From assembly GCA_048886185.1 (NCBI GenBank), contig JBHLKY010000008.1, forward strand, positions 90,947-122,946: a DNA stretch of 32,000 nucleotides. The letters run 5' to 3'. Source of the DNA: Candidatus Hermodarchaeota archaeon. Lineage in GTDB: Archaea; Asgardarchaeota; Heimdallarchaeia; Hodarchaeales; Hodarchaeaceae. The notes under the pieces were generated by a model that did not search any database, was not told the DNA's origin, and was given only the letters and a program-made list of their open reading frames with translations. Made by a program: the position numbers and the translations under genes. Positions 19,981-23,799 of the stretch are shown one piece after another. The stretch's first letter is position 1. Every line of letters begins with the position of its first letter.

Positions 19981-20057
19981 GGGCCGGTGGTCTAGCTCGG
20001 TATGACGGCTGCCTCACACGCAGCAAATCACTAGTTCAAATCTGGTCCGGCCCACCA
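19981..20057 (+). tRNA. tRNA-Val(CAC), intronless, CCA encoded
   Basis: Acceptor stem GGGCCGG/CCGGCCC; anticodon arm GCTGC-CTCACAC-GCAGC; T-loop TTCAAAT; ends ACCA. Confidence 0.97.
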
Positions 20058-23274: not shown

Positions 23275-23509
23275 TTAACTTCTCCAATCTGGCATAATAC
23301 CTTATTTAGGGTTTAGGAATTATCTTTACATGATTTGACGAATACAATCTTTTTTCTTAATGTTATAAGACATGAAATCGTTTTTGAGATATCCACTCTT
23401 ATAACGGGATTAAAATATATTAATTTTGGTCAACAATAAAATATTACTGTTTATATTTATTGAATCATGATGTAGGAGGAGAGGATTGTTAATAATATCA
23501 ACTTGGTCA

Positions 23510-23531
23510 AATGAAAAAAGGATAGAAAAAA
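23510..23531 (-). terminator. Oligo-T tracts downstream of the permuted 5S precursor
   Basis: Minus strand reads TTTTTTCTATCCTTTTTTCATT directly after the 3' arm. Confidence 0.55.
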
Positions 23532-23540
23532 CTTTTGATT

Positions 23541-23571
23541 GCGCCTAATAGTTAGGAATCTCTGTTTCCGG
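23541..23571 (-). repeat. 3' processing arm of the permuted 5S precursor
   Basis: Minus CCGG-AAA-CAGAGATTC...TATTAGGCGC, complementary to 23688-23715. Confidence 0.85.
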
Positions 23572-23685
23572 GTTCGGAATGAGACCGGGTGTAACCCAGG
23601 CCCTTTGGCCGAGCAATACTCAGCTTTTCGATTTTCCCGATGGCTCGCGCACAACAGTACAGACCGAAACGGAACCTAACTTAAC
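23566..23685 (-). rRNA. rrf: Circularly permuted 5S rRNA gene: 3' half (23685-23617) precedes 5' half (23615-23566)
   Basis: 5' half UGCUCGGCCAAAGGGCCUGGGUUACACCCGGUCUCAUUCCGAACCCGGAA carries the conserved loop C; 3' half begins GUUAAG. Helix I UGCUCGGC/GCUGAGUA, helix II CCUGG/UUAGG, helix V UUUCGGU/AUCGAAA, helix IV with GCGA tetraloop; 120 nt in total. Confidence 0.92.
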
Positions 23686-23687
23686 TT

Positions 23688-23715
23688 CCGGCAGAGATTC
23701 GCAGGTTATTGGCGC
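23688..23715 (-). repeat. 5' processing arm of the permuted 5S precursor
   Basis: Minus GCGCCAATA...GAATCTCTG-CCGG; pairs with 23541-23571 (9-bp perfect helix plus outer GC helix). Confidence 0.85.
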
Positions 23716-23765
23716 ACAACAGATGTAGTTGCAGCTACAACCTGATAGGAGCGCATTCAAGAGTC

Positions 23766-23773
23766 TTTAAATA
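23766..23773 (-). promoter_or_regulatory. TATA box for the 5S precursor (TATTTAAA)
   Basis: Position predicts a start site near 23742-23746, upstream of the 5' arm. Confidence 0.55.
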
Positions 23774-23799
23774 TTATCCGTTAACCTGAGATTTTTAGA

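What the first reader, a model, noticed from the sequence alone, without database searches (positions are those of the whole stretch)
23608..23624. Native 5S ends joined by about 1 nt: possibly a covalently closed circular 5S in the ribosome
The native 3' and 5' ends are fused as GAGUA-U-UGCUC, so helix I is capped by a minimal loop. Permuted tRNAs carry an intervening spacer that RNase P and RNase Z remove, but here there is almost no spacer to remove. Either the mature 5S stays circular or a single nick opens helix I. Circular 5S species have been reported in archaeal circRNA surveys, but here the circle would be an obligatory intermediate or the final product.
Basis: inference. Interest (0 to 1): 0.75.

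Follow-up and report, generated by a model that had tools for sequence, protein, structure and literature searches.

The report
Sealed end of a ring-shaped 5S rRNA
The 17-base hairpin is the closed-off outer end of a back-to-front 5S ribosomal RNA gene in a Heimdall-group Asgard archaeon; public RNA data from a sister species hold the transcript joined into a 120-base ring, which probably stays closed in the ribosome, though that last step is not yet shown.

Summary
Window 23608-23624 (minus strand) is a 7-bp hairpin with an AUU triloop. It is helix I of a circularly permuted 5S rRNA gene, the only 5S found in this 96%-complete Heimdallarchaeia genome.

Rotated, the 120-nt core aligns end to end with canonical Asgard 5S rRNAs of 119-120 nt. 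There is therefore no spacer: the loop is carved out of the end of helix I.

The flanks form a co-varying stem with a bulge-helix-bulge-like motif. RtcB and two splicing-endonuclease paralogues are encoded in the genome.

Two metatranscriptomes from different studies hold contigs from the same genus that join 23566 to 23685, exactly as predicted. One is a 150-nt contig, equal to 120 + 30, the signature of a closed k-mer cycle. It also runs through the cap.

Among 65 other permuted Asgard 5S genes, 49 caps are YNCG tetraloops. Selection therefore acts on the loop as a loop, which argues against re-opening. In this genus the cap is a weaker U-rich triloop.

Shown: the permuted gene, and the ring in RNA from a sister species. 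Inferred (about 55%): the ring is the final ribosomal form. Contigs cannot show RNA ends.

This scan has found the same arrangement before in many other Asgard genomes. I found no paper describing it.

The parts
23608..23624 (-). Helix I of the 5S rRNA closed as a hairpin: 7-bp stem plus AUU triloop (loop 23615-23617). The native 3' and 5' ends are fused here.
   Evidence: Sequence; fold; 8 of 8 pairs co-vary and 99.4% are paired in 86 sequences.
23566..23685 (-). The 120-nt 5S rRNA core in permuted order: native 3' half (23685-23618), then the cap, then native 5' half (23614-23566). This is the stretch found as a ring in RNA.
   Evidence: Rfam partial hits: model positions 27-51 at 23566-23590 and the remainder at 23615-23719. 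Model R1 scores 154.8 bits at 23553-23702. The rotated core is collinear with canonical 5S. Joint 23685->23566, 'goes back 120'.
23686..23691 (-). Leader side of the cut site. CCGG (23691-23688) is a copy of the 5' strand of helix III and pairs with 23571-23568. AA (23687-23686) plus G23685 form the 3-nt bulge. Predicted cut: AA|G.
   Evidence: Per-sequence motif analysis; cofold; the 6-letter ambiguity at the RNA joint equals CCGGAA.
23692..23700 (-). Leader strand of the 9-bp outer processing helix (GAAUCUCUG).
   Evidence: Pairs with 23556-23564. The outer helix co-varies: 4 of 4 modelled pairs change on both sides. In another family it reads GAAAUCCAUCG/CGAUGGAUUUC.
23565..23565 (-). Third A of the trailer-side AAA bulge (23567-23565). 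Predicted cut: AA|A, between 23566 and 23565.
23556..23564 (-). Trailer strand of the outer processing helix (CAGAGAUUC).
23707..23716 (-). Leader strand of a second, distal leader-trailer helix (UGCGCCAAUA).
   Evidence: The cofold pairs it with 23540-23550. It is conserved among the closest congeners.
23540..23550 (-). Trailer strand of the distal helix (UAUUAGGCGCA).
23764..23776 (-). A/T-rich, TATA-box-like element (AUAAUAUUUAAAG) about 20-25 nt upstream of the conserved start of the leader. Probably the promoter of a stand-alone 5S transcription unit.
   Evidence: Read from the sequence only. Leader conservation begins near 23755. Inference.
23514..23531 (-). Two runs of six U (23531-23526 and 23519-23514) after the trailer. 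Probably an archaeal oligo-U terminator.
   Evidence: Read from the sequence only. Inference.

Best explanation
The hairpin at 23608-23624 (minus strand) is the sealed outer end of helix I of a circularly permuted 5S rRNA gene, the only 5S gene detectable in this Heimdallarchaeia genome.

The gene is probably transcribed alone, as a precursor of about 230 nt: leader, 3' half, cap, 5' half, trailer.

Leader and trailer pair into a stem. Its inner end has a 3-nt AAA bulge, then a 4-bp CCGG/CCGG helix, then an AAG bulge. This has the geometry of a bulge-helix-bulge motif.

The tRNA-splicing endonuclease is inferred to cut at AA|G and AA|A, and RtcB is inferred to join the ends. That restores the helix II / helix III continuity and gives a 120-nt covalently closed ring.

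There is no spacer between the native ends, and the cap behaves in evolution as a structural hairpin loop. The ring is therefore most likely not re-opened and is the form built into the 50S subunit.

Shown: the permuted gene, the conserved fold, and the ring junction in RNA of a sister species. Inferred: which enzymes act, and that the ring is the final ribosomal form.
For: Gene:
- Rfam 5S matches only in two sub-threshold pieces, in swapped order.
- No canonical 5S was found in the genome, which is 96% complete.
- The same locus is present in 20 of 21 congeners searched, including single-contig genomes.
- The only two canonical 5S hits among 41 relatives lie next to bacterial 23S rRNA, so they are contamination.
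- RNAalifold recovers helices I-V from the permuted alignment; 25 of 35 pairs show compensatory changes.
- On 86 sequences, 38 of 39 pairs change on both sides, and no shuffle out of 500 reaches the observed values.

No spacer: the rotated 120-nt core is collinear with canonical Asgard 5S rRNAs of 119-120 nt.

Processing motif:
- In this genus and in two other families, the outer helix is 5-11 bp, followed by an AAA bulge, a 4-bp helix and an AAG bulge. The predicted ring is 119-122 nt and the junction is always ..GGAA^GUUAAG.
- The cofold reproduces this arrangement.
- RtcB and two endonuclease paralogues are encoded.

Ring in RNA:
- X1 is a sediment metatranscriptome. It holds a 150-nt contig made of 23610->23566 followed by 23685->23581. 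Its first 30 nt equal its last 30 nt, so it is a 120-nt cycle plus k-1. The joint is 23566/23685 with 6 ambiguous letters (CCGGAA). The contig crosses the cap without a break.
- The three differences of this contig from the window make it match the alignment row of congener L007 at those positions.
- X2 is a wetland metatranscriptome from another study. Two of its contigs end at 23691 and continue with 13 nt that equal 23572-23584, which is the same joint.

Cap kept:
- Of 65 distinct permuted 5S genes outside this genus, 58 have tetraloop caps and 49 of these are YNCG (42 UNCG, 25 UUCG). By established knowledge this is an unusually stable structural loop class.
- E. coli ribosomes work with the native 5S ends joined by a 4-nt connector (PMC7283268).
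- Circular final products are known for Thermoproteus SRP RNA (PMC4731332) and for 23S rRNA in Methanosarcina ribosomes (PMC12918454).
Against: - No data on RNA ends. Both runs are kept as assembled contigs, which cannot show 5'/3' ends, strand or stoichiometry.
- The RNA comes from congeners in environmental samples, not from this organism. Depth is low (about 8).
- Nothing links the ring to ribosomes.
- In this genus the cap is not a YNCG tetraloop. It is a U-rich triloop (AUU, GUU or UUU in 13 of 15), closed in the window by a G.U pair. The 'stable loop' argument is therefore borrowed from other lineages.
- The leader-side bulge is not closed by an adjacent inner helix in simple pairing (inner = 0). 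Eight congeners have an A.C mismatch in the 4-bp helix. The motif is thus a relaxed BHB, not a strict one.
- Circular 16S and 23S precursors are re-opened in most archaea studied, so re-opening has precedent (PMC12918454).
Confidence: 0.55

Rival explanations
1. The ring is only an obligatory intermediate. After ligation, an unidentified endonuclease nicks the AUU loop of helix I, so the mature ribosomal 5S is a linear molecule with near-canonical ends.
For: - Circular pre-16S and pre-23S rRNAs are re-linearised in most archaea studied (PMC12918454).
- Permuted tRNAs are re-opened after circularisation (cited in PMC4267664).
- In this genus the cap has lost the YNCG tetraloop and is a weaker U-rich loop with a conserved -UU. 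That could be a nuclease target.
- Contigs cannot exclude ends at the cap.
Against: - There is no spacer and no processing signal between the native ends.
- In 49 of 65 other Asgard permuted genes the cap is a YNCG tetraloop. That selection makes little sense if the loop is destroyed.
- The X1 contig is a closed 120-nt k-mer cycle. Words that cross the cap were therefore not rare compared with the rest, at a mean depth of only about 8 (inference).
- No enzyme is known for such a cut.
Confidence: 0.25
2. There is no ligation in the functional molecule. The mature 5S is a linear permuted RNA whose new ends, in the helix II/III region, are held together by the leader-trailer helix, as in the permuted mitochondrial 5S of brown algae.
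For: - A permuted linear 5S as final product exists in brown-alga mitochondria (PMC4267664).
- The leader-trailer helix is strong and co-varies.
Against: - RNA contigs from two studies carry the ligated joint and stop short of the leader and trailer.
- The duplicated CCGGAA and the bulge geometry give an exact canonical junction. A retained stem would not need that.
- The length and sequence of the outer helix are not conserved between families.
Confidence: 0.04
3. The locus is a non-functional rearranged pseudogene. The real canonical 5S gene is simply missing from the assembly.
For: rRNA genes are often lost from metagenome-assembled genomes. This genome has 75 contigs.
Against: - The same permuted gene is present in 20 of 21 congeners searched and in 102 of 151 Asgard genomes, including single-contig genomes with no canonical 5S.
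- All helices show compensatory covariation, which means purifying selection on the fold.
- The gene is expressed and processed in environmental RNA.
Confidence: 0.01

Closest known systems
Permuted, circular SRP RNA of Thermoproteus tenax and T. uzoniensis (Plagens et al. 2015, eLife, PMC4731332)
   Same: A permuted gene for an essential structured RNA. The new ends lie in a BHB cut by the tRNA-splicing endonuclease and are ligated. The circle is the stable, functional end product.
   Different: It is a different RNA (SRP RNA, not rRNA). It is confined to a few Thermoproteus species, whereas this arrangement is spread through most Asgard lineages sampled. Cleavage and protein binding were shown experimentally there; here there is only an RNA joint seen in contigs.
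Circularly permuted tRNA genes (Cyanidioschyzon merolae; Soma et al. 2007, as cited in PMC4267664)
   Same: Halves are encoded in swapped order. The precursor is cut at a BHB-like motif and circularised.
   Different: Permuted tRNAs carry an intervening sequence between the native 3' and 5' ends, and it is removed to re-open the circle. Here the native ends are fused with no spacer, so that step has nothing to act on.
Circular 23S rRNA kept in archaeal ribosomes (Methanosarcina and others; Genome Biol 2026, PMC12918454); circularly permuted 23S of Pyrococcus furiosus (PMC7758197)
   Same: An rRNA is excised at a BHB and circularised. In Methanosarcina the circle stays in the ribosome, with its ends capped by a tetraloop-bearing helix.
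   Different: Those genes are in normal order, so circularisation joins the native ends. Here the gene is permuted and circularisation repairs an internal break. The same paper states that 5S rRNAs are not processed this way.
Permuted mitochondrial 5S rRNA of brown algae (Valach et al. 2014, PMC4267664)
   Same: Helix I of the 5S is replaced by a closed hairpin.
   Different: The final product there is linear, with an open three-way junction. There is no BHB and no ligation.
Engineered E. coli cp5S (Huang et al. 2020, PMC7283268)
   Same: The native 5S ends are joined by a 4-nt connector, and the ribosomes remain active.
   Different: It is artificial, and the cp5S is inserted into 23S rRNA rather than being a free ring.
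Low-level 5S rRNA circles in Sulfolobus solfataricus and Halobacterium salinarum (Danan et al. 2012, PMC3326292)
   Same: A circular 5S species of about the full length (123 nt).
   Different: The gene there is canonical. The circles are minor, were not validated by RT-PCR, and were suggested to be possible degradation steps. Here the circle is required to obtain a 5S fold at all.

Membership tests
5S rRNA (Rfam RF00001) | Three-domain fold with helices I-V supported by covariation | tested here: met
   RNAalifold recovers helices I, II, III and IV/V from the permuted alignment. On 86 sequences, 38 of 39 pairs change on both sides and 95.3% of cells are paired.
5S rRNA (Rfam RF00001) | Score at or above the Rfam gathering threshold (38 bits) | tested here: not met
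   The scores are 20.8 and 17.9 bits, in two pieces in swapped order. The model cannot represent a permuted order. After rotation the core is collinear with canonical Asgard 5S rRNAs that score 77-85 bits. A rotated sequence could not be submitted to Rfam with these tools.
5S rRNA (Rfam RF00001) | Sole 5S candidate in the genome | tested here: met
   One R1 match and no canonical match in G000. The same holds in single-contig congeners.
Permuted RNA genes matured by BHB cutting and ligation into a circle (Thermoproteus SRP RNA type) | Gene halves in swapped order, with the native ends joined | tested here: met
Permuted RNA genes matured by BHB cutting and ligation into a circle (Thermoproteus SRP RNA type) | Bulge-helix-bulge motif at the new ends (two 3-nt bulges separated by 4 bp, flanked by helices) | tested here: inconclusive
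   The trailer side is canonical: a 9-bp helix, an AAA bulge and a 4-bp helix. The leader-side AAG bulge has no adjacent inner helix in simple pairing. Eight congeners have an A.C mismatch in the 4-bp helix. This counts as a relaxed BHB.
Permuted RNA genes matured by BHB cutting and ligation into a circle (Thermoproteus SRP RNA type) | RNA molecules carrying the circularisation joint | tested here: met
   Joint 23566/23685 in contigs of two metatranscriptomes, from the same genus rather than this strain.
Permuted RNA genes matured by BHB cutting and ligation into a circle (Thermoproteus SRP RNA type) | Splicing endonuclease and RtcB ligase present; cleavage by the endonuclease | tested here: inconclusive
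   The genes are present: RtcB at 533.6 bits and two tRNA_int_endo paralogues. Cleavage itself cannot be tested with these tools.
Permuted RNA genes matured by BHB cutting and ligation into a circle (Thermoproteus SRP RNA type) | The circle is the functional end product | not testable with these tools
   This needs mapping of RNA ends, exonuclease resistance, or ribosome structures. The contigs show only that the ring exists.
Permuted tRNA-type pathway (circle re-opened at the native ends) | Intervening spacer between the native 3' and 5' ends that is removed by end-processing enzymes | tested here: not met
   The 120-nt core equals canonical 5S in length. The cap is a 3-nt loop taken from helix I itself.
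Brown-alga-type permuted 5S (linear final product) | Ends left open, with no ligation | tested here: not met
   The ligated joint is present in RNA.

The most novel reading that the evidence does not exclude
In this genus of Heimdallarchaeia (relatives are labelled Hodarchaeota in public records), and probably in most Asgard archaea, the 5S rRNA in the ribosome is a covalently closed 120-nt ring with no free ends. It is made by tRNA-splicing enzymes from a back-to-front gene. This would be the first natural circular 5S rRNA serving as a stoichiometric ribosome component.
Probability: 0.55. Interest if true: 0.88.

Novelty: new variant of a known kind. Interest (0 to 1): 0.8.

Why it matters
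- 5S rRNA is universal, and in every system described so far it is a linear molecule whose two ends form helix I. A ring-shaped 5S made by the tRNA-splicing machinery would be a new way of building a ribosome component. The papers I could search state that archaeal 5S is not circularised (PMC12918454).

- The arrangement explains why standard tools find no 5S gene in these genomes. Rfam gives 18-21 bits against a threshold of 38. That matters because 5S presence is, to my recollection, one of the criteria for calling a metagenome-assembled genome high quality.

- It is spread through most Asgard families sampled, while three families keep a canonical gene. The gene order is therefore a rare genomic change. 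It may help to order Asgard lineages and bears on where the eukaryotic, canonical 5S came from.

- The cap is the key to the question of ring versus nick. Its evolution from YNCG tetraloops to a triloop in this genus gives a concrete, testable handle.

Tried and rejected
- Rfam at gathering threshold finds no 5S in the window or the genome. Only the permissive search shows the two swapped pieces.
- The two canonical 5S hits among relatives (G023:C798 and G006:C310) looked like counter-examples. They sit beside bacterial 23S rRNA on 2-kb contigs, so they are contamination.
- My simple BHB finder gives spurious best hits for a second group of Heimdall-class genes (L045-type). There the leader forms its own hairpin and the outer helix is only 2-3 bp. 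I did not resolve their motif.
- I tested whether the 29-30-nt insertion in helix III of some genes is a BHB intron. Cutting at the only plausible UUCC/GGAA helix would give a product 3 nt short of canonical, so I dropped the idea (reasoned by hand from sequences).
- Single-sequence MFE folds of the ring do not reproduce the full native 5S fold. Only the cap and a few helices come out. The comparative structure was used instead.
- X2 records 3 and 4 diverge from the window at helix I and come from other organisms.
- No run kept as raw reads was offered. RNA ends at 23615-23617 could therefore not be examined, and depth across the cap could not be compared with the body.
- Literature searches for a permuted or circular archaeal 5S found no description.

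Full report
**What is at the coordinates.** On the minus strand, window 23624->23608 reads GCUGAGU-AUU-GCUCGGC. A permissive Rfam scan gives two sub-threshold 5S rRNA matches on that strand:
- model positions 27-51 (helix III and loop C) at 23566-23590;
- a poor full-length alignment at 23615-23719, whose good part is the 3' half (GUUAAG..., loop E, helix IV/V).

The 3' half of the 5S therefore lies upstream of the 5' half, and the hairpin is where the native 3' end runs straight into the native 5' end. One refinement: a 1-nt loop cannot form. The structure is a 7-bp stem with an AUU triloop at 23617-23615 (dG -8.0 kcal/mol).

**Is it a real gene?**
- The genome is 4.84 Mb and 96% complete, and it has no canonical 5S.
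- The organism belongs to the Heimdall group of Asgard archaea. An exact-pattern scan for the permuted order returned 44 loci. All but two are titled Heimdallarchaeota, Hodarchaeota, Promethearchaeota/-ati or plain 'archaeon'; the other two are labelled Thorarchaeota and Bathyarchaeia. The set includes complete chromosomes.
- The locus is present in 20 of 21 genomes of the same genus that were searched, and in other families of the class.
- Among 41 relatives, only two canonical 5S hits passed the Rfam threshold. Both lie next to bacterial 23S rRNA on 2-kb contigs, so they are contamination.
- RNAalifold recovers helices I-V from the permuted alignment.
- On 86 Asgard sequences aligned to a covariance model, 95.3% of cells pair (63.1% in shuffles). 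Thirty-eight of 39 pairs change on both sides. The covariation score is 0.807 against about 0.1 with slid partners. All 8 pairs of the cap helix co-vary, and 99.4% of its cells are paired.

**No spacer.** Cut in the cap loop and rotated, the 120-nt core aligns end to end with canonical 5S rRNAs of 119-120 nt from Asgard families that kept the normal order. Nothing was inserted between the native ends. The loop is made from the outermost 1-2 pairs of helix I. This is the main difference from permuted tRNA genes, whose intervening sequence is removed to re-open the circle.

**How the new ends are made.**
- Leader and trailer pair over 9 bp (23700-23692 with 23564-23556) and again over about 10 bp further out (23716-23707 with 23550-23540).
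- At the inner end of the stem, the trailer has a 3-nt AAA bulge (23567-23565).
- Next comes a 4-bp helix between CCGG of the leader (23691-23688) and CCGG of the helix III 3' strand (23571-23568).
- The leader then has AAG (23687-23685).
- This is the strand geometry of a bulge-helix-bulge motif. Cutting between the second and third bulge nucleotides (my recollection of the canonical BHB rule) and joining the ends gives ...CCGGAA-GUUAAG..., the canonical helix III-to-II connection, and a ring of exactly 120 nt.
- The same arrangement, with a predicted ring of 119-122 nt, holds in this genus and in two other families. Their outer helices are quite different in sequence, for example GAAAUCCAUCG/CGAUGGAUUUC. 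The outer helix co-varies across the phylum (helix 1).
- The motif is relaxed rather than strict. The leader-side bulge has no adjacent inner helix in simple pairing, and eight congeners have an A.C mismatch in the 4-bp helix.
- The genome encodes RtcB and two paralogues of the splicing-endonuclease catalytic domain. That these enzymes act here is inferred.

**RNA evidence.** Two RNA runs from different studies share words with the locus. I laid their contigs on the window.
- X1 is a sediment metatranscriptome. It contains one 150-nt contig that maps as 23610->23566 followed by 23685->23581.
  - The tool reports a joint 23685->23566, 'goes back 120', with 6 ambiguous letters. Those letters are the duplicated CCGGAA.
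  - The first and last 30 nt of the contig are the same stretch, so it is a 120-nt cycle written out with a k-1 overlap. That is what a k = 31 assembler produces for a closed cycle (inference from the 31-letter words named in the tool description).
  - The cycle contains the ligation joint and the uninterrupted cap, and it has no branch into the leader or trailer.
  - At its three differences from the window, it agrees with the alignment row of congener L007, which has the same cap.
- X2 is a wetland metatranscriptome. Two of its contigs end at 23691 and continue with 13 nt identical to 23572-23584, which is the same joint. One of them, 144 nt long, also runs through the cap.
- The ring therefore exists in nature in this genus. 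At a mean depth of only about 8, neither the cap-crossing nor the joint-crossing words can have been rare.
- Contigs cannot show RNA ends or stoichiometry, and no run with raw reads was available.

**Ring or nick?** The best further evidence I could get is comparative.
- The covariance model finds full-length permuted 5S genes in 102 of 151 Asgard genomes, across about 20 families. Three families (f11, f17, f20) keep canonical genes scoring 51-85 Rfam bits.
- Among 65 distinct permuted genes outside this genus, 58 caps are tetraloops and 49 are YNCG (42 UNCG, of which 25 are UUCG). Their stems are 7-13 bp.
- UNCG loops are the classic extra-stable hairpin caps (established knowledge). Their maintenance through compensatory changes of the stem means the loop is selected as a loop. 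That is hard to reconcile with a pathway that destroys it.
- In the window's genus the picture differs. Thirteen of 15 distinct genes have a triloop (AUU 10, GUU 2, UUU 1) on an invariant 7-bp stem.

Precedents make a permanent ring plausible:
- The permuted SRP RNA of Thermoproteus is circular in its functional form (PMC4731332).
- Circular 23S rRNA stays in Methanosarcina ribosomes (PMC12918454).
- E. coli ribosomes tolerate 5S with its native ends joined by a 4-nt connector (PMC7283268).

Against this, most archaeal circular pre-16S and pre-23S rRNAs are re-opened.

My estimates are:
- permuted functional gene: about 0.97;
- ring formed by cutting and ligation: about 0.9;
- ring as the final ribosomal form: about 0.55;
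- nick at the cap: about 0.25.

**Comparison with what is known.**
- The mechanism is that of the Thermoproteus SRP RNA, applied to 5S rRNA and spread over much of a phylum.
- It differs from permuted tRNAs in having no spacer.
- It differs from brown-alga mitochondrial 5S, which is linear and not ligated (PMC4267664).
- It differs from the minor, unvalidated 5S circles of Sulfolobus, which arise from a canonical gene (PMC3326292).
- I found no paper describing a permuted or obligatorily circular archaeal 5S.
- A 2026 paper states that 5S, unlike 16S and 23S, is not processed through a circle.

**Earlier notes of this scan.** The same arrangement was reported in many other Asgard genomes, including caps sealed by UNCG loops and ring joints in RNA. 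I used those notes as leads only and re-tested the points above on this window.

Noticed in passing
L022:1493-1671 (G001; also G016, same genus); L130 and L150 (family f14): Some permuted 5S genes carry an insertion of about 29-30 nt at the same place, inside the 3' strand of helix III (after ..UCCGAA, before CCCGG). The insert contains its own small hairpin and ends with a near-repeat, UCCGGGAA. It may be an expansion segment, a duplication or a small intervening sequence. A simple BHB intron model did not give a canonical product.
   Followed up: partly
L160 (G162, family f14): Helix I of one permuted 5S is expanded to a 51-nt branched hairpin instead of the usual 17-28 nt. The capped end of helix I can therefore grow, as expected if it points into solvent.
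   Followed up: no
L147, L148 (f17), L152, L153 (f11), L154 (f20): Three Asgard families keep a canonical 5S gene (Rfam 51-85 bits), while about 20 families have the permuted one. Gene order is therefore a discrete character that could be mapped on the Asgard tree.
   Followed up: partly
L045, L046, L055, L069 and similar (Heimdall-class MAGs): In this group the leader forms its own perfect 8-bp hairpin just upstream of the cut site (for example CAUCUGGA...UCCAGAUG). The leader-trailer outer helix is only 2-3 bp. This is a different way of presenting the cut site.
   Followed up: no
G028 and G038 (single-contig genomes), G017, G116, G024, G139: Several relatives carry two or more copies of the permuted 5S gene at separate loci. 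The window's genome has one.
   Followed up: no
window 23457-23654 (-): A 65-codon open frame overlaps the 5S gene. It is almost certainly spurious and could be mis-annotated as a hypothetical protein.
   Followed up: no
G000:C8:47026-47280 and G000:C8:79836-80096: Two separate genes (open frames of 210 and 215 codons) carry the tRNA-intron endonuclease catalytic domain. This would fit a two-subunit enzyme of the kind that accepts relaxed BHB motifs. Both lie on the same contig as the 5S gene.
   Followed up: no
window 19981-20057 (+): A tRNA-Val (CAC) gene, GC-rich and archaeal in type, lies 3.5 kb from the 5S gene. The 5S gene is not linked to the 16S or 23S genes.
   Followed up: no
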